64,000 nucleotides of DNA, taken from contig JAGIQG010000013.1 in the NCBI GenBank assembly GCA_024679065.1, forward strand, positions 43,400,001 to 43,464,000, given 5' to 3'. Of the stretch, positions 5,162 to 62,797 are shown piece by piece (positions within the stretch are counted from its first letter, which is position 1; every line of letters starts with the position of its first letter). Position numbers and translations under genes: made by a program. The DNA comes from Sphyrna mokarran. Its lineage: Eukaryota. The notes beneath the pieces were generated by a model. That model did no database searches. It had not been told where the DNA came from and saw only the letters and a list, made by a program, of their open reading frames with translations.

Positions 5162-6050
5162 TTCCCTGCTTTTATCATTCCATAATAACTAATTCATAAA
5201 TTGATTTACAGGGGACCAGTGGAAGAACGACAAATAATTACATAGGCATTTGAGAAAAAAAATTAAATGATCAATAAGATAATGATCCCCAGGTGTATTA
5301 TCATTCCTCCCCAGTCACCAAATATGCTACCACATGTCCACCAATCAGGGAGGTTGTGATAGTTGATTTTGTGCCTTCGGTCCTGATCTTATCTGTTATC
5401 TCTCTGATGTGATCAGCCAGGCTTATTATATTTTCAGAGGAATCAGGGATATAAGTACAACATTCTGTTCCCACTAGAGTGCATATATCTCCTGATTTGG
5501 CCAGTAAATAATCTAAGGCTATTCGGTTTTGGAGAGCTACTGTTTGGATGGCAATTACTTCTGCTGACACCTCAGATATAGCCATGCTCACACTTTCCAG
5601 ATCACCTATTGTGTCATTGGCTATTTTCTCAAGAGCTGACACCATATTCATCAGCTCTCGGGCAGCTTTGGCTGTACAGTAGACAGGAAAGGTTATCATC
5701 CAAAACCGCTGACTCTCTGTGATGCCCATTTTGATCTCAAAAGGTGTATCTTGCGGTGGAGGCATAGGGAGTCATAATAGCGGATATAGGGGACCTCTTA
5801 CTCTAGATAGCAAGATCCTGCCCAATCCCAAGGGAACCATGGATAGGCATTGTTTTCGCAGACAAAATAGGTACCATTATATGCAATCATTATGCTCAGT
5901 AGTTCGGGATCAGTCCTGAGTTGGGCAATACTGTTAGAACTCTCAATTTTCAGCATGTCCCTTTGGATGCCCTTAGTAACATTGAAGGTCCGGTTACAGC
6001 TACTATGGTCTACCAGCTTTGTCCCATTTCTAATGATACATATGGATTCA
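5162..6050 (-). pseudogene. env: Gamma-type retroviral env remnant (SU C-terminus + TM subunit)
   Basis: Immunosuppressive domain LQNRIALDYLLA, CX6CC motif (CTLVGTECC), heptad region; upstream frame GTYFVCENNAYPWFPWDWAGSCYL; mutated furin site RSKW; one stop and frameshifts. Confidence 0.9.
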
Positions 6051-8559: not shown

Positions 8560-9680
8560 ACCAAGAGGGATAATGATAGATTTAAAGAGAATGCCTAAGG
8601 AAAGAGAACCATTAATACTAGCTTATATGGGAGCCTAGAAGGGAAGTTGAGTTGTCAGTATTCTCACTGAAATAGGATGAGGGCAAGTCAAGTTGAGACC
8701 AGAGATGGCATAAGGTGGCTAAGAGAGAAACTAAAGAAAAAGAAGTTCAGGGCAAGGAAAGGGAGACCCTTAGAGGAAGCTTGACTTGGAGAGTTAGGCA
8801 AGTAGTAAAGACAGTTGGTCAAATAATTTTCTTGACAAAAAAGGCTATGAGCTCTTTACACTTATTCTTGAAGATGAAGTTAGATGAAACAGAGGAGAGT
8901 GGTTTACGAAGATGGCTGAAGAAAGAAATATAGAGATAAGAAGCTGAGGGTTGTCTTTATTTACAGGACAATCCTGGCCTGTTTTCACTAAGAAGAACAT
9001 TCAATAGTGCTTTAAGTGGTCTAGGTGGAAATAGCAGTGAATGGCTAAACCAGTTTGCTGCCATATCCTTTCACATCTATGCCTTTTGGGACTTAAGGCA
9101 GTAGAAATGTGGACCATATCAGAGTAATGATCAGGGAGAGAGAGAAGAAAGTAATGGTTTTAATCAGAATATGGGCATTAAAATTATTTGACCAACTGCC
9201 TTTACTATTTACCCCATTCTCCAGGTCAAACTTCCTCTAAGGGTCTCCCATCCCTTTTCTTTAGTTTCTCTCTTATCCATCTTATGCCATCTCTGGTCTC
9301 AACTTGTCTTGCTCTCAGTCCTATTTCAATGAGAATACTGACAACTCAACTTCCCTGTGAGAGTGTGGTTGAACAGATTAGAAGTTGCACATATGTTATG
9401 GTGAACAGAGAGCCAAAAGATAGACAATTGGGATTCTGAAAGTGCAGGTTCATATTAACTAACAGACACAGAAGTCTGGTTTAGAGATGGAAGTTGGATA
9501 TGTGTGGGGAGTGATACAAGGAAGTGATCAGGAATGGCCTTATCTGTGATTGCTACTATGGGAGTTGCTAGGCCATGTGAGATGGTGAGGCCAAAGGGAT
9601 GGCCTTGAATATGGGTTGGTAGTTTAATGGAGGGAGAGATAATGTGTGACCCACAATGGAAATCCTCTACCGAGCCCATC
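8560..9680 (-). mobile_element. Old L2/CR1-clade LINE fragment (endonuclease region)
   Basis: PTHIQGHPFGLTISHGL...TDKAIPDHFLVS resembles APE endonuclease motifs PTH..G.LDL / SDH. Confidence 0.6.
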
Positions 9681-20709: not shown

Positions 20710-22226
20710 TATCTGATGTAAGGCATATTTAAATCCTGATCTAATTTGTAGGCTTTCCATCACCTTTTCATCAGAGTTACAGCAGCAGTACGTAAAAAGC
20801 ATTAAGGATTTATACCCCCTTATTCATCAAGGGATTTTTAAAAAAGATCATTTTAGCAAAACTGACATAATTACATTTTTATGTGGTTTTGTTTACATTT
20901 ATTGTGGTACCCTCCCCATTTTTTCATAGACGTCCTCATTCTCATGGTTTCCATTTTTATGGGATTGTTCACTCTTCATTCTTTTACCTGTTGAGATAAA
21001 TATATATATAACTATGGTGAACTTCTCTTCAAAAAAATGGGAGGAAAGTCATATTTACATAAACCTGCACAATGAACTTGGATTATAAGATGTGATGTGA
21101 CTTTTTCACTCGGCAAGCTTCAGAATATTGATGTATGACCATATTGCTTCAGCACAAAGCAATAAGATTTAAATCACATCTATTTTACCCTATTATTATT
21201 TACTTATATTCTTCAAAACCATCTATACACTCAGATTAAAGGGTAAACAGGAGCCCTCTAGAAACACTGCTTTCGATTTAATAGATGGTTCTTGTAGAGC
21301 ATCCTTCATAGACACTCCCAGTTACTGAAACAAAAAGGATGACCAATTAAAAACCAATTTAAAATGGCATTTCCTAATGAAGTCATTGATGGCATAGTTA
21401 TGATTATTATGAACTCACCATGTGGAAAATCAGAGGCAAACTCTAGAAAATATAGAATGGGAGGCCTGACAAACAGACACACGTTTTATCCTGGTCTGCT
21501 GAAGAGATAAGTGAGTAATACTATGGGACAACCTTTTGCTATGCTGGTAGACTTTATGCAGAGGCAAACTAACTTCTATAAGAAGTACAGAAGCGAATCA
21601 TGTAAGAAAGCAACTGCTACTGCTCAAGTAGACCCAAATTCATGACCTGGATTCAAATGATAAATGCTCTGTAGATATTATCAGTCTACCTTCCTGTTGT
21701 AGAGAACTAGAATGACTTTATTGGACCATATTGATCAGAAGGAATGAAGACAGACTCCCTTTTTATTCCCTATTTTGACTGGAGTGTTGCCACCAAATAA
21801 AAGCATGTATTTTTAACTGCAAGAAAAACAAATGATCATAAACTAGACTGAAAGCACCTTGACAGTGATACCATTAGATATCTCTCTGCAAGATCCATTC
21901 TACCTCTCCTGCCCATCAAAGCGTAGTATGTTTAAACTGAGGCCAATTCCTGTTGTTCTATATATTACCACTTTCACTTTGATATGAAAAAGTTTCTAAC
22001 ATGCATCAAAATGAAAATCGTGGTATAATTTGGAAGTCAGTTCCTGATCTGACTCCTGAAACCCAATGAGGTTTGGGGGTGTGAGAAACAGTCTGCAAGG
22101 AATTCTCACACTAGTTAAAGTTCACAGTGTTGCGTGTCTGTGACTTATTGCAATGTCACATTTGAAAAACATGCAGACATTAATTAAACTAAGTATATGA
22201 TATTTTTCAGTGCACTTCTAACACTG

Positions 22227-26434: not shown

Positions 26435-26514
26435 TCAAAGATGATTCTGAATGGCTGACTGGGTGGTGAAAAATCTGTCAGGATTCCAGATGAAATTGGA
26501 TTGGGCAATCACAG
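26435..26514 (-). CDS. IgV membrane gene: candidate terminal (cytoplasmic) exon
   Basis: Acceptor tgtatttgctag|, phase 1, (A)VIAQSNFIWNPDRFFTTQSAIQNHL*; followed by AT-rich sequence with AATAAA at ~26290 and ~26270; alternatives exist (see findings). Confidence 0.5.
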
Positions 26515-26689
26515 CTAGCAAATACAATGATACAAATCATTTAAAAATACAACACTGTTTTTTTGTACCTCCATGCAATCACTATTGTGCTTTACTGGTA
26601 AAAATTAACTGTTGGGTAAAGAATAACTTAACTTTTCTAATACATTTAATCCTGAAATATGACTTCTTTAATTACATGTATTGCTTTGA

Positions 26690-27275
26690 TGGGGTGGCAT
26701 ATTGGCACAGTGGTTAACACTGCTGCCTCACAGTGCCAGGGGTCTGGTTCAATCCAGCCTTGGCTGACTGTGTGGAGTTTACATGTTCTTCCTGTGTCTG
26801 TGTAGGTTTTCTCCGGGTGCTCTTGTTTTTTCCCCACACTGTAAGAAGTCTTACAATACCAGGTTAAAGTCCAACAGGTTTATTTGATAGGAAACACCAC
26901 TAGCTTCCGGAATGCTGTTCCTTTGTCAGGTGAGTGGAGAGTTCCGAAAGTTAGTGGTGTTTACTATCAAATAAATCTGTTGGATTTTAACCTGATGTTG
27001 TGAGACTTCTTACTATGTTTACCCCAGTCCAACGCCAGCATCTCCACACATTCTTCCCACACTCCTAAGAAGTGCAGCTTAGGTGGACTGACCATGCTAA
27101 ATTGCCCCCTAGTGTCCAAAGATACGTAGGTTAGGGGAATAGTGCTGGTAAATATGTAGGGTTATGTGGATAGGGCAGGGGAGAGAGCCTGGGTAAGTAT
27201 GCACTGACATTCTTGGAGAGTCGGTACAGACTTGATGGGATAAATAGCTTCCTTCTGCACTATCTGGATTCTATG
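26690..27275 (+). mobile_element. V-SINE/HE1-like SINE interrupted by a PLE hairpin
   Basis: ggcacagtggttaacactgctgcctcacag head, V-domain core, CR1-like tail. Confidence 0.85.
26841..27050. mobile_element. PLE-derived hairpin element (second subfamily) with degenerate hammerhead
   Basis: Inverted arms gtaagaagtcttacaa.../...ttgtgagacttcttac; tail ccccagtccaacgccagcatctccac; 13-bp TSD with 2 mismatches (26828-26840 / 27051-27063). Confidence 0.8.
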
Positions 27276-28044
27276 GTGCATTAATGTTTAAATTAGTGAC
27301 TTAAACCTCTCAAGCTTCCTTTCATCCTTACAATTCCTGTTTTTGATCAAGCTTTTCTTTATCTTTCTTACTATCTAATATACAATCTCTGGCTCTGTCT
27401 TTGGCTAATTATCACATCATCACATTAACAACTTAATGTAAATGCAAATTGTTCTTGTAAAAATAGGGGTGCATTCCCACAGGTCTTCTGTGAAAGATAG
27501 GGCAAACTAGAGAAAAACTCTACATAGCAATTAACACAAGACTTCTATACAACTCTCCCTGACTTTTTCTCCTTGTCATTCACAGCCTTTCAGAGATTTT
27601 GCACTGTTGTATCAATTATTTAATTAGTAATCCACATTTTATGAATAAATTGCAGAGTGGGGTCTTATAGAGATCTATTAATTTATGTTATGGGCATTTA
27701 CAATGTTGTTTTTATTCTTTTGGTTAATTTTTTGATAAGGTATTGTTGCCAATACTAATATTTATTGTCCATATCTAATTGTCTTAACAATTCTTCTTGT
27801 ACTGCATTGCATTTTGACACAACTGAGTGGCTTGATGGATCACTGCAAAGGGCAGTTAAGAGCTGAACATATTGGTGAAGTATTGGAATTTACATAAACA
27901 GGTAAGCTCAGCAGGTTTCTTCATGAAAGAATATTAGCAAATTAGTTTCTTTCTTATAACCCAACTGCTTTGTTTTACTTTACTGATACAGCTCACTTTT
28001 TCTACTTACATATTTTAATAAAGAGATTCTAAGTTTTCATAATA

Positions 28045-28345
28045 TCATGGAATCCCTACAATGCAGAAGACCATTTTATCCATCAAGTCTGCACCAACAG
28101 GCCATAGCCTCATAATCCCACGTATTTACTCTGCTAACCTCCACCCACCTGCCCCCGCTCCATCCTATATATCTCGGGACATTAAGGATCATGACCAATC
28201 AACCTAACCGGAACATTTTTGGACTGTAGGAGGAAATTGGAGCGCCTAAAGGAAACTCACGCAGACAAGGGAGAACTCTACAAAGACAACTACCCAAGAC
28301 TGGAATTGAATCTGATTGCCTGGCACTGTGAGGCAATGCTAACCA
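28045..28345 (-). mobile_element. V-SINE/HE1-like SINE
   Basis: Reverse complement of the SINE head and core. Confidence 0.8.
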
Positions 28346-28455
28346 CTGAGCCATCACACTGCTAGGTGATTGCTTCTTGATTTGTACCTTGCATAGAATC
28401 CATATTTTTGTTCTCACAATAATTTCATTCACATTTTTACTTTCTCTTCACTTAC

Positions 28456-28575
28456 CTCGCCTCCTTGACCTAATCCTACAATATCTCACAACTGCCCACG
28501 TTAAAATAGCGGTGAAGATCAGTGCTCCTATTCCAGAGAATGCACCTATGAGACCACAATTTACCATGACATAAT
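28456..28575 (-). CDS. IgV membrane gene: transmembrane exon
   Basis: Acceptor ttttactttttag|, donor G|GTAAGT, 120 nt phase 1-1; (D)YVMVNCGLIGAFSGIGALIFTAILTWAVVRYCRIRSRRR = TM helix plus basic stop-transfer. Confidence 0.9.
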
Positions 28576-28744
28576 CTAAAAAGTAAAACAGATATTTGAT
28601 GAGGGCCCATGACATAGAACAGATTTTCTGTAAATAAAAATATCATAATTCAATAAGTAGCTGCAGCAGCAGGAATTGTGCAATTTATTCTCTTATAACC
28701 AGGTATTAATGGCCAATGTGATCTTATTGGCATGGTGTGGCATG

Positions 28745-29044
28745 GAGCAGCATGGTTGCACAGTGGTTAGCACTGCTGCCTCACAGAGAGCGACATGAGT
28801 TCAATTCCTGGTTTGGGTCACTGTCTGTGCGGAGTCTGCACGTTCCCTGTGTCTGCATGAATTTCCTCTGGGTGCTCCAGTTTCCTTCCACTGTCTGAGA
28901 GACGTATTGGTTAAGTGCATTGGTCGTGGTAAATTCTCTCTTAGTGTAACCGAACAGGGGGCGAAGTGTGGTGACTAGGGGATTTTCATTGTAACTTTAT
29001 TGCAATGTTAATATGTCTACTTGTGATACAAATAAATACACTTT
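28745..29044 (+). mobile_element. V-SINE/HE1-like SINE (second tail type)
   Basis: Head, core and aataaa tail as at 56447. Confidence 0.85.
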
Positions 29045-29554
29045 AATCTTATTTGTTTTGATCTCAGGCAAACACTTATAAAACAAGTTAATTGCTAGCT
29101 GCAACAATTAACTGTTTGATCAGGAAAATTGGAGACCTCTGTATTTGCATTTGTGCTTATCTACATCCTGACAAACATTCAGTTTAAACTCCTTCAGCAA
29201 AACAACACTTGCTCTGTCTGCCGCAGAATTGACCGCCTACATATGAGCTCAAACCTTGCTTTGGGCTTTATCATATGTAGAAGGTAAAGGAGATAAACAT
29301 CTTTTAGTTTGTTCAGAAGGCTGAAACTTTCTTCATATGTTTCAATTAAATGAATAAAGGGGATTAGAGAGAGGTTTAGAAGAGTTGTTAGTAACTTTTA
29401 GAGCTGGCAGAAAGAAAAATGAAATATCAGAACTAAACATTAACCTTTAAAGTAATAGTTGGAATGCCATAAGTTTAATTTGCTGTGTTTGTTTTGTAAC
29501 TTACGCATTTGTTTTGTAACATAGAACAATCTGCTTACCAAACAGCATTCTTAC

Positions 29555-29629
29555 CATTGGTTTTGTTGTCTTTCACATGAGTTAGGTTAAAGTCTTCAAT
29601 TTGCAAATCATCCATTGTCACTACTTCCC
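29555..29629 (-). CDS. IgV membrane gene: stalk exon 2
   Basis: Acceptor aacttttccag|, donor G|GTAAGA, 75 nt phase 1-1; EVVTMDDLQIEDFNLTHVKDNKTN with two N-glycosylation sequons. Confidence 0.75.
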
Positions 29630-30070
29630 CTGGAAAAGTTAATGCCCAGGAGGAATTAATAAACATGGACTGGCACCTTATTACAAATACACATTTTGTG
29701 AAGCACAATATTATCAAATGTACAAGACCATTTTGTGTTTTTAATAATGGTTAGTTGATCTCCCGTAGTTTTTTTGGCAGATGGAGACTAGTGGAGAAAC
29801 TGAAGACTGGATGGGAAGTGGAGGCTGAGGAAAGAACTGAGGAGGTGAACACAGCCCTGAGAATTGATGGGAGGTTTACAGGGGCTGTGGCTAATGACAA
29901 ACTGTGAGATTTTCTATGGCACTTGCATTTTTATTGCTAAGGAAATTATTTGCTTCACAATGGCTGGCTCACTGTTAGATATTTCACATGAGTGCTGATT
30001 TTTCATGGACTAATTCTGTCAATTTGGCAACCGATGCAGGCCAATGAAACCTCCAACATAGTACACTCAC

Positions 30071-30184
30071 GAGGTGAATTAGTAACATAAATTTTACCAG
30101 TACAAATGTTTTTTGTATTTATGGTTACCTCAGTATTGTCATTGTCAAAATGTGAACTGAAGAAAGTTACTATAGATGTCAGAG
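30071..30184 (-). CDS. IgV membrane gene: stalk exon 1
   Basis: Acceptor tttttgtacttcacatttatag|, donor C|GTGAGT, 114 nt phase 1-1; (A)LTSIVTFFSSHFDNDNTEVTINTKNICTGKIYVTNSP. Confidence 0.7.
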
Positions 30185-30293
30185 CTATAAATGTGAAGTA
30201 CAAAAAAAATTCTTGCAGATATGTATGCAGCAAATTCTTGGTGGCTTTTAGAAATCAGACAACATCCTTATCTAATTTAACATCAAGGCCAGT

Positions 30294-32960
30294 ACAAAGA
30301 ACAAAGAACAACACAGCATAGGAAACAGAACACACGGCTCTACAAGTCCGCGCCATCCATTTTAGCACTCAGTGAGTGCCTTATTCAAGTCTTTTGTCGA
30401 CCAATGACACTTTTGTCTACCTCTAGTGGACTCCACAACAAAGGAGTGCAAATTTAGGGAATTATATGTGCGTTAGATTAAGAGAGATCCAATTTAGGAA
30501 CAAATTATTGACACAATCAGCCTAAAAAGCACATTTTTGGGATGTGGGAGGAAACCGGACCACCTGGAGAAAATCCACGCAAGTATGGGGAGAACATACA
30601 AACTCCCACAGATGTTGACCCAAGCCAGAGATCCGACCCGAGTCCCTGTAACTGCATAGCAAACAGTGATAGTCATTGAACTGTCATGTTGCTTGTCAAT
30701 TGGTCTAGTTTAAGCATACACTAATGGACATAAAGCACTAGGCAACTCTTGAAGCAACATCCAAGAGCATCTCTCGCCCAACCCACCACGTGTATGCCCT
30801 TTGTTGACCAACAATGCGGACCAAATCGCCTGTGGGTGTAAAAAGGAGACATTAATAAACATACAACATTCTTTCATATCCCTCCATCTCCAGTCTGCTC
30901 GTGTGCTTATCTAGATAAGTCTTAAACAGCCCTAGCATGTCTATTTCAACCATTCAACTCGGTAGTGCATTCCAGGCCCCCACAACCCTCTGTGAAGAAA
31001 CATCCCTTTAACATCTGAGTTATACCTCGCCCCTCTCACATTGAGTCTGTGATCCCTCGTGATTTTTGCATCTAAGCTAGGAAAAAGCTTCCCACTGTTC
31101 GCTCTATCTATACTCTTCATAATCTTACATACCTCTATTAGGTCTCCCCTCATTTTCCATCTTTCCAGGGAGAACAATCCCAATTTGCCCAATCTCTCTC
31201 ATAGCTAAGACTCTCCATACCAGGCAGCTTCCTGGTAAATCTCCTCTGCACTCTCTCCAAGGCCTCCATGTCCTTCCAATAGTGCGGTGACCAAAACTGG
31301 ATGCAGTACTCTAAATGTGGTCGAACCAATGCTTTATACAACTGAACATTAGACACCAACTTTTATACTCTACACTCCTTCCAATAAAGGCAAGCATACC
31401 ATATGCCTTCTTCACCACCTTCCCCACCTGTACTGTCACCTTCAAAAACTTGTGAACTTGCACACCTAGGTCCCCTCTGTGTTTTATACTCTTAATGATG
31501 CTACTATTTATTGTATAGCCTCTCCTACATTAATTCTTCCAAAATGCATCACCTTGCATTTATCTGGAGTAAATTCCATGTGCCATTTCACGGCCCAATT
31601 TACCAGCCTATCTATATCCTGCTGTATCGTCTGACACTGTTCGTTACTATCAGCAAATCCAGCCATCTTCGTGTCATCTGCAAACTTGCTGATCACAAGA
31701 GTTACTCTCTCTTCTAAATCATTTATGTATATTACAAACAGTAGAGGTCCCTGTATGGAGCCCTGTGGAATACCACTAGTCACAGACCTCCAGTTAGAAA
31801 ACGACCCTTCCACTGCTACCCTCTGTCTCCTGTGGCCAAGCCTGTTCTCAACCCATCTCGCCATCTGTCTTTGTATCCCATGAGCCTTAACCTTTTTCAC
31901 CAACCTGCCATGAGGGAGTTTGTCAAATTCCTTACCGAAATCCACATAGACGACATCCATGGCTCTTCCTTCATCCACCATTTTTGTTACCTTCTCAAAA
32001 AATTCCACCAGATTTGTAAGGCATGACCTCCCTCTTACAGAAGCATGTTGCCTGTCACTAATGAGATTGTTCTGTTCTAAATGCGCATATATCCTATCTC
32101 TAAAAATCCTCACCAACAATTTTCCTACCATTAATGTGAAGCTCATCTGCCTATAATTACCCAGGTTATCCCTGCTACCCTTTTTAAACAACAGTACCAC
32201 ATTCGCTACTCTTCAATCCTCTGGGACATCACCTGTGTCCAAAGAAGAGACAAAGATTTCTGTCAGAGTCCCAGCAGTTTCATCTCTTGTCTCCCTGAGC
32301 AGTGTAGGATAGATGCCATCAGGCCCCGGAGATTTGTTAGTTTTAACGTTCCCTAAAAAACCTAACACTTCCTCCCTTGTAATGGAGATTTTCTCCAACG
32401 GGTCAACAACTCCCTCTAAGACGCTCCCAGACAACAAGTCCCTCTCCTTTGTGAATACTGACACAAAGTATTCATTCAAGATCTCCCCTATTCCCTTGGG
32501 CTCTAAACATAATTCCCCTCCTTTGTCCCTGAGGTCTGATTTTTTTCCTCAACAACTCTTTTGCTCCTAACATATGAATAAAATGCCTTTGGATTATCCT
32601 TAATCTTATCTGCCAAGACCATTTCATGACCTCTTTTCACCCTTCTAACTCCCCATTTGAATTCTCACCTATTCTCTCTGTATTCTTCCAGAGCTCTCTC
32701 TGTTCTCAGTTGCCTGGACCTAACATACGTCTTTCTTTTCTTTCTGATCATGTCCTCAATATCCCTAGTTAGCCACTCTCTAATCTTGCCTTTCCTATTC
32801 TTCCTCTTTACAGGCACATGGCTGTCCTGCAGCCTTATCAGATGTCCCTTAAAAGACTCCCATGTACCATATGTGGACTTACCCCTGAACATCCTCTCCC
32901 AATCAATGGCCACAATTCCTTCCTAATCCAGTTATAGCTAGCCTTTCCCCAATTTAGCAC
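30294..32960 (-). mobile_element. CR1 LINE, ~2.7 kb, frameshifted ORF2 (RT), SINE-like domain in 3' UTR
   Basis: ORFs 32665-32913, 32213-32479 (KSPGPDGIYP), 31508-32200 ([13 protein letters not shown]), 31150-31359, 30941-31192. Confidence 0.95.
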
Positions 32961-35290
32961 AATCACCTGTAATCTCACAAACTGCAGAAATCACTGAAGT
33001 TTAAAAAATCTCTATACTGGAAGTGTGTAACCAACTGCAGCGAGGTCAGGCAGTTGAGGATGGGCAGTGAATGCTGGTCTAGTCACTCAAGTCCACATCC
33101 CATGAATAAATAAAAAAAATTCTATAATGCAAAAATAAACCAAAGTCCAAGAACCAATTTATGAAAATATAGATTTATGATTAAGCGATGCAAACAGAGT
33201 ATTGGGGAGTTAGACTCATAATATTTGCTGTTGATACATTATTTTATAAAGTTTCAAAGCACAAATATGATGCTAATTTTATATTATTCTTAAACAGGGT
33301 CTTTCTTTGGTTCTTCCCACATTGATACAAACATGAGCAACTTCTAACTAAATATGCTAGCTGTATTAAGGCAGAATACTGGGAAGATCCATTTGACTGA
33401 CTCTAATCCTTCATTAAATCCATGAAGCAAAGCAATTTAAAAGTGAGAGTAATATATGATTGTTAGAAAGCAATTATAATGCAAACATAAAAATGCCTGA
33501 AACACATTATATTCATTTTGATAACTGGGGAGAATCATCAACATATTTCCATTTCTAAATTAGAAAAGAGATTCATTAAGAAGCTATGAACTGAATTGGT
33601 GCAGCTGCAAATGATCAGAAGAAGCCCAATGGTATGCATTATCCTACCTATTAATCTTGGCTTCAGCTTGCTGAGGCCAATTATTTTTATTTGATGTCAA
33701 TGGCAGTGTTGGCATTTATTACCCATTCTTAGTTGCTTGGAGAAGGTGGTGGTGTGGTAATTTGTGCTTGTAGCAGTTTGATACAAACAGCACCTTCTGC
33801 TGCCAGCAAGCTAGCTACCTATTAGTTAATCACATTGCTGTGAGGCTGGAGACACACAAGGGACAGCCTGGGGAGGACAGTAAAGCCCTTCCCCAAATTG
33901 TTTTCCTGTTAAAATTTGGCTCTCTCAAACAGCCCAACAATGTTACACGATGAGAACTTTGTTTTAATTTGAACCGACTTTAAATTCTCAAACAACTACT
34001 GTTTTTCATCAAAATTTGTTGTTTTTGAGTTAGGGATTGGGCTCAAAATTGAAGAAAATGGATCCCTTTATCGAAGAAAAAAAAGTTTTAATTCCGCAGC
34101 CTGTGCGACCATTTCCATTATTTCCTCGTGGAGCTTACTTTATTGCTCTTATTTTTCCAAAATTGTACGAAATATCACCACCCCGCGCTAAAGATTAAGA
34201 CCTTTGAACGCCCATCAGTTTCCTCCGGCTGCCTTTTGCTCAATCAGATAAAGGGCGAGGTGGAGACCTTCTGGGAGGGAGAACTGGCGAACCTGGGCAA
34301 ACTCTGGAAAGTGCTGTCCCCGCACCACCATCCTCCCCTTCCAAGCCTTTGTTGCTTGTCCCGAAAACGCTCATCTAGACCGCAGTTCAGAAACTCTTTT
34401 TAACCTTTGAATATTGCTTGGGTTTTTCCTACTTGCCCCACCACCACTATCGTGCGAAAGCTCTACACTCAGTAACTGCCACGTCTTTTCTGACTCTTAT
34501 AGAAAAACAATGGTTAGAGGGGAGGGAAGGGGAGATGAAAGGAAAGAGGAAAAAAATGTGAGATACAATGACAAAAAAGAGAACTCAATTAAATGGACTC
34601 TAGGTCAGCGACGATAATGAGAATTTTAGATGTAGACCCTGAAAATACCAGACATGTATGGGTTGTACACGAATGACTTATTCGCATTCAAAGGACTCAC
34701 GCTAACCACTTCTCTGAATGACAGGTCCTTTTAATCTCAATGCAAGCGAACTGGTATTTCTGTGACGACTCTTTTTTTTCTGTTTGCACAGGTATGCAGA
34801 CTTTTTCGTTCACTGTTCGGTATTTAGCAGAGAAATTCATCCGCTGTTTGCCTTATTGAGGGGTTTCTTCCCCCGAAGACACAACCTTTGATTCAATCTG
34901 TTGGAAAAAAAAAGCCCTTTCCCATATATCTGAACACTTAAATTTCTTTGAGATCGTTGTCCGTAATAATATTATCCAATTGCATAAGTTTATTTTTGTC
35001 TGTTTTGATTTTCGTTTTTACCAGTTCTCTTAATTTTGCTAAAACAGCCACCTGTAGACACTGGGATCAGATATTCCACACGGATTCATTGGAAAAAGCA
35101 GAGACTTCCAAAGGCCGAAGTAGCTCGATTCTCAGTGTGCTCTCAGGGAGACTGTACAGCGCTCTGGAAGTTGTATTCATCACTAGAGAATTCTAGAATT
35201 CCAAATATATATAACTGATGCATTTCAAAATGATTCACGATAATAAATCAACGAGGGAATGATTTAAATTGCTGGACAAAAATCTAGGTT

Positions 35291-35730
35291 TGAGATGGAG
35301 GTGCCCGAGTTGGACGGGGCGTGGGCACAGTAAGCAGTCTCACAACAACACGTCAAAGTCTCACAGGTTTATTTGAAATCACTAGCTTTTCGAGCGCTGC
35401 CCCTTCATCAGGTGGATGGAGGTTGGTTCACAAGCATGGAATACATGACACAATTGCAAGATAATTACATATTAGAATGTGAAGAACCGGCGGAAGGCAA
35501 GTCTTTACAGGTAACGTGTGATTATCCTTCTCTCCATGCACACTGTACTTGTAAAGGCTTGATTACCTGTAAAGATTCATATTGCAACTATTCTTCACAT
35601 TCTAATATGTAATTATTTTGCGGTTGTGTCTGTCTATATACGCTGTGAACTAACCTCCAGTCACCCGATGAAGAAGCGGCAAAAGCTCGTGATTCCAAAC
35701 AAACCTGTTGGATTTTAACTTTGTAAGAAG
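35291..35730. mobile_element. PLE-derived long fold-back (~200-bp arms) in intron 2 of the IgV gene, hammerhead-bearing
   Basis: Family tail gatggaggtgcccgagttggacgggg; minus-strand CAC-CUGAUGA-A-GGGGCAGCGCUC-GAAAA-GC-UA-GUG at ~35379-35414; degenerate mirror at ~35660-35695. Confidence 0.75.
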
Positions 35731-36278
35731 TCCCACAGCACCAAGTCTAGACTGTAAGAAATGTGAGGTAAGACAGATTTTTAGATGTCATTTAGTTTCG
35801 TCGACGAGCTTTTTAGGGAAATATCCCAGGATGGAAGAGGTTGTGAGTGGGAGAATTACAGCTCAGCTTCTCCCCACTGGAAGTATTTATTTTTAAAACT
35901 GGATTGTAATGAATTAAGGAACGAGCTCTAGAGGTAAAGTCCATGATCTTATCTGGTCTATCCAGTAATCTAAGTTCTGTGAAAGATGGGTATGATGTCA
36001 AAGATGCATATGCAACCTATGAGGCTCAATCAACTGCGTTTCAAAAATGTTAAAAACATGTTGCTCCAAAGATTTAATTGGAGGGGAATAAGGTAACACT
36101 GCCCTTAGTAATATTGAATCTGCATATCTACAATCTTCAGCTACTGACAAGTTACAATAATGTTCTCCCACTAGGTTTATTTTATGAAAATGAATACAAA
36201 TTCGTTTCAAGGACTGCAATGATTAATTAGTGCTTTAATTTCATCTGCATTTAACACCGAATAGGTAAGCGTACTCAC

Positions 36279-36626
36279 CAATCACCTTCACTATGGTGTG
36301 CTGGCTAAACTCCTCTCCACTATGAGATGTGATGGTGCAGAAATATGTCCCCGAATCGTTCAGCGTGACGTTTTGGAGAGAGAGAGAGCCATTAGGATAG
36401 ATTTGTGCCTTGAGACTGTAGTTGCTGAACCAATGTGGCATCTGGCTACCGTTATTCGGTATGAACTCAACAATTAAGCGGTGGGTGCTGGAATTCGTAT
36501 ACATCCACTGTATGGTGTGTACCTGTTCAGTCGCCACCCTGACTGGCATTGCCAGGAAGATGTTCCCATTCACCGTTCCATTTACAACGTTGGTATTGTT
36601 TCCAGTGGCCGCTGCCTGCAGCACAG
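36279..36626 (-). CDS. IgV membrane gene: V-set Ig domain exon (VSTM5/HepaCAM/CEACAM-N/CD2-type)
   Basis: Acceptor ctctttcag|, donor G|GTGAGT, 348 nt phase 1-1; IQW (C-strand Trp), NGSLSLQNVTLNDSGTYFC (E-F strands); no B-strand Cys; 8 sequons. Confidence 0.92.
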
Positions 36627-36725
36627 CTGAAAGAGATCGGAGGTAACAGAATCAGGCTACAGATTCTTTATAATGTAGACAAGGCGAGACAACAAGAATG
36701 GGCAGTTGTCCCAGACGGGAATTAC

Positions 36726-36780
36726 CTTGCAGCCACCAGATGTACAGTGCACCTTGAAGAAGTTTTCTAGTCCACTTCAT
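36726..36780 (-). CDS. IgV membrane gene: leader exon
   Basis: ATG at 36780; MKWTRKLLQGALYIWWLQ + G|GTAAT; a 99-nt intron joins in frame to AVLQAAATG, completing a signal peptide. Confidence 0.85.
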
Positions 36781-57568: not shown

Positions 57569-58658
57569 CAGTAAGAATTTAGCAACACCAATTATTAATC
57601 CAACCGATTTATTTGATAGTAAAATAGCGAGCTTTCAACACTCCCGTGTCTTCATCAGGCAAGTGCAGTGTTCTGGTCTGCAATAGCACACATCAGCACA
57701 GACAGTCAGAGATTGCTGATTAGAATGCGAATCCTTACATCCAACCTGCTATTTAAGTGTTAAAGTGGCTAACAATGTGTGTGAAGGGGATCCTGAGCAT
57801 TGTTAGAGAATTGTGTATTTTCTCCAGACAGCACAGTAAGTGAGGTTTTTTGCTAACCCAGGCAAGTTACGGGGGTTACAGATAGTGTGTCATGAAGCCA
57901 AGATCCCTGTTAAGACCGTCCTCATGTGTGCGGAGCTTGGCTATCAGTCTCTGCTCAGCGACTCTGCGCTGTCGTGTATCACGAAAGCCCCCTTGAAGAA
58001 CATTTACCCGCAGGTCGGAGGCCGAATGCCCATGACTGCTGAAGTGTTCACCCACAGGAAGGGAACTGTTTTGCCTGGTGATTGTTGAGCGATGCTCATT
58101 CATCCGCTGTCGTAGTGTTTGCATGGTCTCCCCAATATACCATGCTTCGGGACATCCTTTCTTGCAACGTATTAGGTAGACAACGTTGGCCGAGTTGCAA
58201 GAGTATGTACCGTGCACCTGGTGAATGGTATCCTCACGTTTGATGATGTCGTCCATGTCTATGATCCGGCATGTCTTGCAGAGGTTGCTGTGGCAGGGTT
58301 GTGTGGTATTGTGGTCACTGTTCTCCTGAAGGTTGGGTAGTTTGCTGCGAACAATGATCTGTTTGAGGTTGTGCGGTTGTCTGAAAGCAAGAAGTGGGGG
58401 GGTGGGGATGGCCCTAGCGAGATGTTCATCGTCATCAATGACATGTTGAAGACTCCGGAGAAGATGTCGTAGCTTCTCCGCTCCGGGGAAGTACTGGACA
58501 ACAAAGGGTACTCTGTCCACCTTGTCCCGTGTTCGTCTTCTGAGGAGATCAGTGCGGTTTATCGTTGTGGCACGTTGGAACTGTCGATCGATGAGTCGAG
58601 CGCCATATCCTGTTCTCACGAGTGCATCCTTCAGTGTCTGGAGGTGTCTGTCACGATC
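57569..58658 (-). mobile_element. Penelope-like retroelement, 5'-truncated: RT-thumb/linker + GIY-YIG endonuclease + 3' pLTR with hammerhead
   Basis: Uninterrupted frame to 57876: PCHSNLCKTC linker, NVVYLIRC..C...YIGET..LRQRMNEH, VGEHF...H, RRVAEQRLI, GLNRD; perfect 13-bp TSD aattggcattatt at 57556-57568 and 58659-58671. Confidence 0.95.
57625..57663 (-). ncRNA. Minimal hammerhead ribozyme motif in the PLE 3' pLTR
   Basis: UUGC-CUGAUGA-A-GACAC(GGGA)GUGUU-GAAA-GC-UC-GCUA: intact core, 5-bp stem II with GNRA loop. Confidence 0.8.
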
Positions 58659-59827
58659 AATTGGCATTATTGACAGTGTAATGGCAGCAAATGACCACCA
58701 GATGGTGGAAGAATCGTACTCCTTCTGTATTCGTCCTAATAACAGTTCACAAGATAGTTACAAATCAGGAGAATATTAGGCTCTGATTATTCATCAACAC
58801 CTCTTGTTATCAGCATGACTGCCAGTGTGGTAGAAGATGAACTAGGATGGACTGTGGTCTTTTTTCAATGCAGTCACTTCTATATTCCTTCAAAGGAATA
58901 TCAGAAAAATGGAATATTTTGTTTGATTCCTTGATCACAAAGATCAAGATCATATTCCCTTACCAGTGACTACACCCTTTCCTTGGCAGCTCATGCTAGT
59001 TGAAGCAGGCTGTGCAAAAGCTCAGATTCCCTTTTGACCAAAGCAAATTTTCAAACATCATTATCTTATCCACAAAAGCGGTGACTTCTACCTTTCCAAC
59101 ATCTCTTGTTGCTGCCCCACTGCATCCTCAGTGCTGCTGAAATGCTGATCAATATTAAAATGAAGTTTAGGTTCAGTTTCACCACTGTCGCAGGCTCTTA
59201 AATCTCTACACACTCCAATTTATCTAAACACCTGCTGCCCCTCAGTAAATCCCACTTGTAAATTACACCTCCAATGACTCCATTGAACCACTCTGGCCCC
59301 CTGTCCCCAGTCCTCATTCTTGTTTTCAGATTTTGGAAAACCCCATTGCTCTCCAGTCATATGTTTCTGGACCTTGAGTGTCCCTCCTGTCCTACACTCC
59401 GTCCCAGCTGGTGTGCTGCACTTGTGGAACTCACTTCCTCTGTAAATCTCGCCTGTAAATCAAGCTCTTTTAGCTTTTTCATCTCTCAAAAAGTTTGGTA
59501 TCCACTCCTGTCGTCTTTTGTGTACTGTCAGGGAACAATTTTCTATATTAAAGGTTCTTTGTGGTTGGAATCAACCCACCCCTCTGGTGGGTTCTGAAGC
59601 TGTGTGGAGGAGTGGGGGGGGGTCAGGGGGTGTGGTTGGTAAGGTTGGTGAAATTGTATGGGTGGGATTCTGCCCAAGATCCCACTGGCCTTGACCCATA
59701 CCTAATTTCACAGTGGAACAGATAGTGCCTGAGATGAGAAGCCCACCCCATGTCTCTATTTCAACCCTTAATTTGTTTGATACCTTGTATCATTGTCTAT
59801 CAAGCAGCCTCAACCAATAGTGTCTTT

Positions 59828-62593
59828 AGAACATAGAACATAGAACAATACAGCACAGAACAGGCCCTTCGGCCTTCGATGTTGTGCCGACCAAAATAAA
59901 AAGCAATGCCCTCCTAACTAAACCATTCCCTTCTCATCCATATACTTATCAACTAACCTCTTAAACGCCACCAAACTTGGCGCATCTACAACAGCTGCAG
60001 GCAGGGCATTCCACTCCCTAATCACTCTTTGAGTAAAGAACTACCTCTGATATCCGTCCTATAACTCATACCCCTTAATTTAAAGCTGTGTCCCCTCGTG
60101 CTAGCTTTCTCCATCCTAGGAAAAAGGCTATCACTGTCCACCCTATCTAAACCTCTAATCATCTTATATGCTTCAATAAGATCCCCCCTTAGCTGCCTCC
60201 TTTCTAACGAAAACAACCTCAAATCCTTCAACCTCTCTTCATAGGACCTGCCCTCCATACCAGGCAACATCCTGGTAAACCTCCTCTGTACCCTCTCCAA
60301 TGCCTCCACATCTTTCTTATAATGTGGGGACCAGAACTGCACACAATACTCCAAGTGCGGCCGCACTAGAGTTTTGTACAGTTGCAACATGATGCTGCGG
60401 CTCCTAAATTCAATCCCCTACCAATAAAAGCTAAGACTCCATATGCCTTCTTAACAACTTTATCCACTTGACTGCCTCCTTTCAGGGATCTATTGACACA
60501 TACACCAAGATCCTTCTGTTCCTCAACACTATTAAGAGCCCTACCATTAGCCCTATACTCTACACATTTATTGTTCCTGCCAAAGTGCATTACTCACACT
60601 TTTCCACATTAAACTCCATTTGCCACCTCTCGGCCCAGCTCTGCAACTTGTCCAAGTCACTCTGTAAACTAAACACCCCTCTTCACTATCTACCACACCA
60701 CCAACTTTAGTATCATCTGCAAATTTACTGATCCATCCCTCAATACCCTCATCCAGATCATTTATAAAAATTACAAACAGCAGGGGCCCCAAAACAGACC
60801 CCTGAGGCATACCACTTGTCACCGAACTCACGATGAATATCTCCCATCAACCACCACCCTCTGTCTTCTATCTGCCAGCCAATTCCTAATCCAATTAGCT
60901 AAATCACCCTCTATTCCACGCATCTGCATTTTCTGTAGAAGTCTTCCATGGGCCACCTTATCAAACGCCTTACTAAAGTCCATATATACTACATCAACCG
61001 CCTTACCCCCATCCACCTCTTTGGTCACTTTCTCAAAAAAATCAATGAGGTTAGTAAGGCATGACCTACCCTTCACGAAACCATGCTGACTATCCCCAAT
61101 CAATTCATTTCTCTCTAAATAACTATAAATCCTATCCCTAATAATTCTCTCCAATACCGTGCCCACCACAGAAGTAAGACTCACTGGCCTATAATTCCCA
61201 GGAAGGTCTCTCTTCCCCTTCTTAAACAATGGGACCACATTCGCCATCCTCCAGTCCTCCTGAACCACACCCGTAACCAACGAGGACCTGAAGATCAGAG
61301 CCAGAGGCTCTGCAATCTCCTCTCTTGCCTCCCAGAGAATCCTAGGGTAAATCCCGTCCGGACCAGGGGACTTATCCAACTTCAAACCCTCGAGAATTTC
61401 TAGCACATCCTCCCTATCTACTACAATACTTCCCAATTTGCAACCTGTACCTCAGTGTTCTCCATAGCTACATTTCCAGCACTCTGCGTGAATACCGAAG
61501 AGAAATATTTATTCAGTGCCTCACCAATCTCTTCAGGCTCCACGCACAACTTCCCACTGCTGTCTATGACTGGCCCTAATCTTGCCCTAACCAATCTTCT
61601 ATTCTTAACATATCGAAAGAAAGCTGTAGGATTCTCCTTAATCCTATCAGCCAACATCTTCTCGTGTCCCCTCTTAGCTCTCCTCAATTCACTTTTTACC
61701 TCCTCCCTGGCTAATCTATAGCTATCCATTGCACTATCTGAGCCTTCAAGCCTCATCCTGACATAAGCCTCCTTTTTCTTCTTAACCAGCAAATCAACTT
61801 TTTTCGTACACCAAGGCTCTCTTACTAGTCCATTTCCTCCCTGCCTGACAGGGACATACTTATCAAGGACTCGCAGCAGCTGCTCCTTGAATAAGCACCA
61901 CATTCCAGATGTTCCCAGTCCCTGTAGTGCCCTAGTCCAATCTATGCACCCTAATTCTCTCCTGATGGCCTCATAATTACCCTTCCCCCAGCTATAACTA
62001 CTGCCCCCAGCTTCATGCCTATCCCTGTCCATCAATAAGGTGAACGTAACCGAATTGTGGTCACTATCACCAAAATGTTCACTAACTTCCAAGCCTAACA
62101 CCTGGTCTGGCTCATTGCCCAGCACCAAATCCAATGTAGCCTCACCTCTAGTTGGCCTATCTACATACTGAGTCAAAAAACCTTCCTGCCCACTCTGTAC
62201 GAAAACTGACCCCTCTAACGAGCTAGAGCTATAGCTATTCCAATCAATATTAGCAAAGTTAAAGTCCCCCATCACAATTACCCTACTACTTTCACTCCTA
62301 ATCAGAATTGACTTCGCAATCCTTTCCTCAACCTCTCTAGAACTATGAGGAGGTCTGTAAAAGACTCCCAACAGGGTGACCTCTCCTCTCCTGTTTCTAA
62401 TCTCAGCCCATACTACCTCAACAGACAAGTCCTCATCAAACTTCTTTTCAATCACCGTGATACAGTCTTTGACCAGTAACGCCACTCCTCCCCCCCTTCT
62501 ACCCCCTTCTCTACTCCGACTAAAGCATTTGTACCCCGGAACCTGCAACATCCATTCCTGTCCCTGCTCTACCCAAGTCTCTGAAATGGCCAC
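59828..62593 (-). mobile_element. Relatively young CR1 LINE, 5'-truncated in the endonuclease, ORF2 with several frameshifts
   Basis: EN (VAISETW, GVFYRPP, MGDFN, SDHN), RT ([29 protein letters not shown]), (AGAACAT)n tail; 4-bp cttt at both ends. Confidence 0.97.
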
Positions 62594-62797
62594 TGCAGGC
62601 ACTTTCTTATCCACTGCAGGCAAATAAGTAGAAATATTGGTTCCTATCATTTACCATAGTTAAGTGATATATCTCAGACTTTCTAATTTTCCTTATTGTC
62701 TTTCTCTTTCCCATGTCTCTGGTTTCCTGTATTTCTTGATCTGTCTATCTTTCAGTCCCGCTGTTTTGCTCTCCTTCCAACTCCCATTCTACCTTTG

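What the first reader, a model, noticed from the sequence alone, without database searches (positions are those of the whole stretch)
26435..36780. Six-exon gene for a single-IgV, heavily glycosylated type I membrane receptor not visible in the ORF track
Seen: exons 36780-36726, 36626-36279, 30184-30071, 29629-29555, 28575-28456 and (tentatively) 26514-26435, all joined by phase-1 GT-AG introns into one 792-nt frame (263 aa). The V domain keeps the F-strand Cys but lacks the B-strand Cys; there are 10 extracellular N-glycosylation sequons, one Cys in the stalk, and a TM with small-residue GxxxG-like spacing (GAFSG). Known: V domains without the canonical disulfide typify CD2/SLAM, CEACAM-N, HepaCAM and VSTM5; NGTV..IFL / TIQWMY / IVEFIP recalls VSTM5 from memory. 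Inference: a divergent, possibly lineage-specific adhesion or immune receptor that may dimerise.
Basis: partly seen in the sequence, partly recalled or inferred. Interest (0 to 1): 0.7.

Follow-up and report, generated by a model that had tools for sequence, protein, structure and literature searches.

The report
Ancient shark single-Ig signalling receptor gene
This is a five-exon shark gene for a small cell-surface receptor, kept by sharks, rays and chimaeras, whose tail ends in a conserved tyrosine motif that likely docks the enzyme PI3K, so it is likely an undescribed activating receptor of immune cells.

Summary
Exons 1, 2, 4 and 5 hold. Exon 3 (30184-30071) is absent from all 20 orthologue records aligned. 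Exon 6 (26514-26435) is replaced by a last exon at 20987-20899, 90% identical to Mustelus. Orthologues are RefSeq LOC genes in 14 chondrichthyan species, unnamed or auto-named, and I found no paper on them. It is not VSTM5: a separate candidate sits beside MED17 on another contig and is only 27-30% identical. The gene lies between a CD200-like gene and CD200R-like exons, near ARL13B. Best reading: a leukocyte co-signalling receptor with a CD2/SLAM-type ligand domain and a CD28H/CD28X-type YxxM (PI3K) tail. Expression, ligand and signalling are untested. Verdict: new member of a known kind, moderate interest.

The parts
36726..36780 (-). Exon 1: ATG and most of the signal peptide (55 coding nt)
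   Evidence: GT donor, phase 1; aligns with the orthologue N-termini
36279..36626 (-). Exon 2: end of signal peptide and the whole V domain; no B-strand Cys, F-strand Cys115 kept; 8 sequons
   Evidence: Pfam V-set E 3.7e-13; 74% to Mustelus; AlphaFold pLDDT 90.9, V-type strand order; single close copy in the genome
30071..30184 (-).
   Evidence: Absent from 20 of 20 orthologue records aligned; chance rate 0.33-0.39 per intron of this size; no Pfam hit
29555..29629 (-). Exon 3 of the corrected model: 25-aa stalk with two conserved sequons (11 and 10 of 14); skipped in one Scyliorhinus isoform
   Evidence: 81% to Mustelus by tblastn; isoform X2
28456..28575 (-). Exon 4 of the corrected model: membrane-border Cys166 (10 of 14), TM with [GA]xxx[GA] (14 of 14), inner Cys192 (11 of 14), basic stop-transfer
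26435..26514 (-).
   Evidence: 1 of 25 equal-or-better candidates; no orthologue match; AATAAA/ATTAAA do follow at 127-162 nt, in AT-rich DNA
20899..20987 (-). True last coding exon: 29-aa tail ending in the motif EDVYEKMGRVPQ, then TAA; AATAAA about 330 nt downstream
   Evidence: 26 of 29 identical to Mustelus, E 1e-12; AG acceptor at 20989-20988; motif in 13 of 14 sequences; poly(A) signal

Best explanation
A five-exon gene encodes a 228-aa type I receptor with one disulfide-less V domain and one tail tyrosine in a YxxM motif; it likely sits on leukocytes, likely binds another Ig-family protein on a facing cell, and would then recruit PI3K to give an activating co-signal. Steps: (1) signal peptide, V domain, stalk, TM and tail are shown by sequence and orthologues. 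(2) The domain folds like the CD2/SLAM/nectin/TIGIT adhesion V domains (predicted). The best-conserved glycan sites (N34, N97, N108) lie on the A' strand and the DE and EF loops, which would leave the GFCC'C'' face free for a protein ligand (inferred). (3) The small-xxx-small TM and border Cys166 would favour a dimer (inferred). (4) Acidic residues before Tyr220 suit a Src-family kinase, and pY-[E/V]-x-M suits the p85 SH2 domains of PI3K (established motif rules, recalled; untested here).
For: Tail motif columns are 75% identical in pairs, against 39% for the adjacent linker and 52% for the V domain; D-2, Y, M+3, G+4, V+6 and P+7 are each kept in 13 of 14 sequences, down to Callorhinchus. YxxM is the PI3K site of CD28, and YEDM/EYEDM tails mark CD28H and CD28X (PMC11599192). 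The gene lies about 35 kb from two V exons that share CD200's extra Cys pair and about 107 kb from a CD200R-like V+C2 gene, i.e. in an immune-receptor cluster. The fold is nearest NTB-A, CD166, nectin-1, TIGIT, CD48 and 2B4 (Z 16.2-14.4, rmsd 1.5-2.2 A over 92-103 residues; the top three are tied). The gene tree follows the species tree, with one gene per species.
Against: No expression, ligand or phosphorylation data exist here. YxxM also fits the YxxPhi sorting signal. The Grb2-type N+2 is present in only 4 of 13 motifs. Some annotated isoforms lack the motif (Mobula, Pristis X1/X3, Narcine X2) or the TM (Cetorhinus record). The most similar clusters by features are VSTM5, a neural adhesion protein. 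The fold matches are generic for V domains. The names CD200R-like and BTLA-like for the neighbours rest partly on recalled motifs; the PDB searches did not single out CD200R.
Confidence: 0.55

Rival explanations
1. A VSTM5-like adhesion or membrane-shaping protein of neurons or epithelia; the tail tyrosine motif mainly controls endocytosis (YxxPhi, AP-2).
For: Atlas feature and structure searches rank VSTM5 clusters at or near the top. The architecture is the same: one disulfide-less V domain, TM, short tail. One orthologue is auto-named 'VSTM5-like'. Vstm5 acts on neuronal filopodia (PMC5528877).
Against: A separate VSTM5 candidate lies beside MED17 on contig C2; it is only 27-30% identical, lacks both V-domain Cys and has a different tail. 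The acidic run before the Tyr and the fixed Met suit a kinase/SH2 site. The neighbours are immune-receptor-like.
Confidence: 0.22
2. A CTLA4-like regulatory or decoy receptor: the YxxM motif drives constant recycling, and the receptor removes or competes for a ligand instead of activating.
For: The Hemitrygon motif reads YVKM, the same four letters as the CTLA4 motif (recalled). Soluble or tail-less isoforms are annotated. Its neighbours are inhibitory-type genes.
Against: There is no ITIM or ITSM (the -2 residue is Asp in 13 of 13 motifs; definitions in PMC12151841). There are no CD28-family V-domain hallmarks. E+1 in 12 of 13 and the acidic context favour phosphorylation.
Confidence: 0.15
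3. The reader's six-exon, 263-aa form is the main product in this species.
For: All joints are GT-AG and in frame. Alternative last exons are annotated in some rays.
Against: No orthologue carries either exon. The intact, 90%-conserved last exon at 20987-20899 argues for continued use. Such pseudo-exons arise by chance at about one per three introns of this size.
Confidence: 0.05

Closest known systems
VSTM5
   Same: One V domain without the canonical disulfide, N-glycans, short stalk, TM, short tail; top Atlas match at 0.96.
   Different: Different locus. This genome has its own candidate beside MED17, 27-30% identical in the V domain, with no F-strand Cys and no YxxM.
CD2/SLAM family (CD2, CD48, CD58, 2B4, NTB-A)
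   Same: Disulfide-less N-terminal V domain; Receptor_2B4 Pfam score 21.3 against a cut-off of 21; among the best fold matches.
   Different: No C2 domain, no ITSM, no proline-rich tail; F-strand Cys retained.
CD28 family, especially CD28H and CD28X; also CD7 (YEDM tail, recalled)
   Same: Single V ectodomain, membrane-proximal Cys, one acidic-Y-E-x-M tail motif read as a PI3K site (PMC11599192).
   Different: The V domain lacks the B-strand Cys and the PPP/EIP/GxG CDR3 motifs. The synteny differs from the cd28hl1-3 and cd28x blocks in that paper. Four orthologue accessions are not in its supplements.
TIGIT / BTLA / CD200R cluster receptors
   Same: Same kind of neighbourhood; single V domain; one orthologue is auto-named 'TIGIT-like'.
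   Different: No canonical disulfide and no ITIM; the tail motif is of the activating YxxM type.
CEACAM N-domain proteins (CEACAM3, 4, 19) and HepaCAM
   Same: Y-x-x-R-x-x-I-Y-P-N-x-S-L stretch shared with CEACAM N domains; CEACAM19 among Atlas hits.
   Different: F-strand Cys kept, one tyrosine rather than an ITAM or ITIM pair, no constant domains; 24-25% structural-alignment identity.

Membership tests
IgSF V-set, type I membrane protein | V-set profile over cut-off and V-type fold | tested here: met
   50 bits vs cut-off 26; pLDDT 90.9, Z 14-16 to V domains
IgSF V-set, type I membrane protein | Signal peptide, single TM, basic stop-transfer | tested here: met
   Hydropathy peak 2.1 at residues 162-189 and conserved N-terminus; no dedicated signal-peptide predictor was available
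VSTM5 orthologue | Position in the MRE11...HEPHL1-VSTM5-MED17 block (gene list in PMC6399517) | tested here: not met
   MRE11 and MED17 are on contig C2 with another single-V/TM gene between them; this gene is on C335 near ARL13B
VSTM5 orthologue | VSTM5_C domain (PF28389) | not testable with these tools
   Family not in the library held
VSTM5 orthologue | Close full-length similarity to vertebrate VSTM5 | tested here: inconclusive
   No VSTM5-named protein among hits; 27-30% to the genome's own candidate; no named VSTM5 sequence was available for direct comparison
CD2/SLAM family | N-terminal V domain lacking the B-F disulfide | tested here: met
   No B-strand Cys in 14 of 14
CD2/SLAM family | Membrane-proximal C2 domain | tested here: not met
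   No second Ig exon in the gene; none in 20 orthologue records
CD2/SLAM family | ITSM (TxYxxV/I) or proline-rich tail | tested here: not met
   Tail motif D-[VIT]-Y-x-x-M; one Pro near the end
CD28 family | Single V ectodomain with a YxxM tail | tested here: met
CD28 family | Canonical V disulfide and CDR3 motif (PPP, EIP or GxG) | tested here: not met
   The F-G region reads C-T-I-T-S-H-S-G-E-E with no such motif; B Cys absent
TIGIT / BTLA | ITIM (S/I/V/L)xYxx(I/V/L) | tested here: not met
   Asp at -2 and Met at +3 in 13 of 13 motifs (definition)
CEACAM / HepaCAM | Cys-free N domain with constant domains, or an ITAM/ITIM tail | tested here: not met
   F Cys in 13 of 14, no constant domain, one tail Tyr
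PI3K-recruiting co-stimulatory receptor (function) | Phospho-dependent p85 binding and co-stimulation | not testable with these tools
   Needs bench work

The most novel reading that the evidence does not exclude
An undescribed co-stimulatory receptor older than the shark-chimaera split that joins a CD2-type adhesion domain to a CD28-type PI3K tail, sits as the activating member of the ancestral CD200/CD200R/BTLA cluster, and was lost in bony vertebrates; with two more disulfide-less single-V genes on the same chromosome it would form an unrecognised family.
Probability: 0.25. Interest if true: 0.65.

Novelty: new member of a known kind. Interest (0 to 1): 0.42.

Why it matters
Inventories of shark co-signalling receptors are built by searching with mammalian genes, so a receptor with no mammalian counterpart is missed or mislabelled. 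Here the automatic names were TIGIT-like, AGER-like, PSG-like and VSTM5-like. A tail motif held almost unchanged from chimaera to sharks and rays, while the ligand face drifts, points to a fixed intracellular partner. If it co-stimulates, it shows that early jawed vertebrates had a further route to PI3K activation outside the CD28 family, placed in a cluster known in mammals for inhibitory receptors. It is directly testable with existing shark spleen single-cell data and a chimeric-receptor assay. It is not a new kind of system, and the orthologues are already in RefSeq as predicted genes.

Tried and rejected
RNA evidence: no RNA holder was listed for the V exon, so no reads were laid; this is no evidence either way. 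Homodimer prediction of the V domain returned no verdict (score 0.00 twice, alignment not used). The full-length AlphaFold model of the Mustelus protein failed (pLDDT 30); the V-only model worked. First hunt for VSTM5: the C11orf54-like gene on contig C794 has no V exon within 200 kb on either side; MED17 and innexin family searches found nothing and the multicopper-oxidase search one exon on another contig. The block was found instead through MRE11. The 400 kb fetched were not analysed. A V-domain tree of 23 rows could not resolve deep kinship: 12 of 20 inner branches are open and the VSTM5 candidate sits on a long branch. The upstream exons of the BTLA-like tail exon were not found. No bony-vertebrate orthologue appeared, but two of these are word-limited and the best 150 of 507 hits were crowded by multi-domain proteins, so loss is not shown. 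dN/dS could not be run without orthologue DNA. Earlier scan notes: none found. Literature: ten searches; none described this gene, and five LOC ids plus one accession gave 0 papers. Main texts only were searched, so supplements of shark transcriptome papers may list it. PMC6705580 was not held. Rejected: artefact or repeat (single copy, conserved orthologues); VSTM5, TIGIT, CD28-family or SLAM membership (see tests).

Full report
Observation. The six intervals exist as stated, all with GT-AG ends and phase-1 joints, and give 263 aa with 10 sequons. The V exon is a V-set domain (E 3.7e-13) with one close copy in the genome. The window comes from a shark whose protein is sister to that of Mustelus asterias (76% identity, support 99/98).

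Correcting the model. Sequence searches found full-length orthologues in Mustelus, Scyliorhinus, Carcharodon, two Chiloscyllium species, Hemiscyllium, Heterodontus, Pristis, Hemitrygon, Mobula, Narcine, Rhinoraja and the chimaera Callorhinchus, plus a truncated Cetorhinus record. They are uncharacterised LOC genes or carry automatic '-like' names (TIGIT, AGER, PSG22, VSTM5). Their tails match window 20987-20899 (26 of 29 residues to Mustelus, E 1e-12), which has an AG acceptor, a TAA and an AATAAA about 330 nt on. I used one isoform per species and chose the motif-bearing one for Narcine (X3) and Pristis (X2); the Cetorhinus record and seven other isoform or partial records were left out of this count. 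Private or minor use of either exon cannot be excluded without reads. An in-frame acceptor at 21026 could add 13 residues to the tail.

Anatomy. The signal peptide spans exons 1-2. The V domain (residues 29-134) models well (pLDDT 90.9) and is nearest NTB-A, CD166, nectin-1, TIGIT, CD48 and 2B4 (Z 16.2-14.4), which says adhesion-type V domain and no more. The B-strand Cys position holds M, I, V, A or G in 14 of 14 sequences; Cys115 on the F strand is kept in 13 of 14 and has no partner in the domain. Sequons at N34, N97, N108, N149 and N156 are kept in 9-13 of 14. Those at N28, N63, N77, N87 and N104 are kept in only 1-4, so ten sites is a trait of this species; orthologues have 2-8. The CC' loop and C'-C'' region are the most variable parts (26-41% pair identity). 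The tail has a basic start, a variable linker (39%) and a terminal motif D-[VIT]-Y-[EV]-x-M-G-x-V-P (75%), present in 13 of 14; the Mobula record ends otherwise.

Surroundings. Towards lower coordinates lie two V exons about 35 kb beyond the 3' end that share CD200's extra Cys pair, which nectins lack (nectin-1 scores marginally higher). Beyond them are a provirus-like stretch, ARL13B, a one-exon syntaxin and an RsmB-type methyltransferase, read as STX19 and NSUN3 from recalled gene order. Towards higher coordinates lie a lone terminal exon with ITIM/ITSM-like motifs (BTLA-like by recall; upstream exons not found), a V+C2 gene read as CD200R-like, a related Cys-free V gene and another CD200R-like V exon. 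In humans these names map to 3q11-q13 (recalled).

Not VSTM5. In chicken VSTM5 lies in a block with MRE11, HEPHL1 and MED17 (PMC6399517, passages seen). Here MRE11 is on contig C2, and 0.67 Mb further on lies a single-V/TM gene about 53 kb from a MED17 exon (MED17 E 3e-35). I name it VSTM5 by position and architecture, not by comparison with a named sequence. Its V domain is 27-30% identical to ours, no closer than other disulfide-less V domains, lacks both Cys and is followed by a different tail. A distant paralogous tie remains possible; the tree cannot settle it.

How it likely works. Shown: topology, the disulfide-less V domain, a conserved dimer-type TM, one conserved tail tyrosine, and an immune-type neighbourhood. 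Inferred: the V domain binds an Ig-family ligand across a cell contact by its less glycosylated face; clustering lets a Src-family kinase phosphorylate Tyr220 behind its acidic run; pY-E/V-x-M recruits p85/PI3K. The only change seen at +1, E to V, stays within the p85 preference (recalled). The same logic is given for CD28 YMNM and for the YEDM/EYEDM tails of CD28H and CD28X (PMC11599192; abstract, passages, one section and a supplement search seen). I put this at 0.55. A VSTM5-like adhesion role with a sorting motif (0.22) and a recycling decoy (0.15) are the rivals.

Other papers seen: PMC5528877, parts 1-2 of 4; PMC13262535, passages, part of one section and a supplement search, where three accessions of shark orthologues and the chimaera one were absent; PMC12151841, passages. 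Others were seen as search listings only.

Verdict. A real, conserved, so far undescribed chondrichthyan receptor with a corrected five-exon structure. It works like a CD28H/CD28X-type co-signalling receptor with a CD2-type head, but fails the membership tests for CD28, CD2/SLAM, CEACAM, TIGIT and VSTM5. New member of a known kind; interest 0.42.

Noticed in passing
L021:7677-8066 (+) (G000:C335:43651677); TM-like exon near C335:43676010: A related V exon about 215 kb away, 32% identical, with neither B- nor F-strand Cys; possibly a second member of the same family.
   Followed up: partly
L112:1402-1926 (+) (G000:C335:25796147): A third disulfide-less single-V/TM gene on the same contig, orthologous to uncharacterised Heterodontus XP_067897153 (60% in the V exon).
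   Followed up: partly
L070:1162-1632 (+) (G000:C335:35913493): A Cys-free V exon over the Receptor_2B4 cut-off, a CD2/CD58 candidate by recall; no PDB hit at E 0.001.
   Followed up: partly
L024:4647-5126 and 5644-6033 (-); TM exon at C335:43376899-43377069: The CD200-like gene has two tandem V exons 0.5 kb apart; no C2 exon was picked up by my motif scans, so it may be V-V rather than the mammalian V-C2.
   Followed up: partly
L007:8302-8595 (+) (G000:C335:43512302): A terminal exon with a strong acceptor and ILYATI...CEYAVI motifs (ITIM plus ITSM-like, BTLA-like by recall); no upstream Ig or TM exon was found in the 75 kb before it.
   Followed up: partly
L011:131-568 and L010:6503-6904 (-); L100:3486-3917 (+): Two CD200R-like genes in opposite orientation flank the related V gene.
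   Followed up: no
L184:7614-8036, 9442-9675 (+) (G000:C2:48.55 Mb): Syntenic VSTM5 candidate beside MED17; an SLC5A7-like sodium:solute symporter gene lies just upstream, and the C11orf54-like gene found is on another contig (C794), unlike the chicken block.
   Followed up: partly
window 5301-5771 (-): Fragment of a retroviral env transmembrane region (PF00429, E 3e-10); observed only.
   Followed up: no
L027-L028 (G000:C335:43348000-43357500, -): A provirus-like stretch with several separate gag-, pol- and env-like frames between ARL13B and the CD200-like gene; observed only.
   Followed up: no
window 31508-32548, 60022-62650, 57876-58757 (-): LINE reverse-transcriptase and endonuclease remnants, one inside intron 2, and a Penelope-type GIY-YIG frame.
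   Followed up: no
G000:C668:6.0-7.2 Mb: A cluster of at least eight disulfide-less-type V exons, three of them with identical scores 6 kb apart, possibly CEACAM-like.
   Followed up: no
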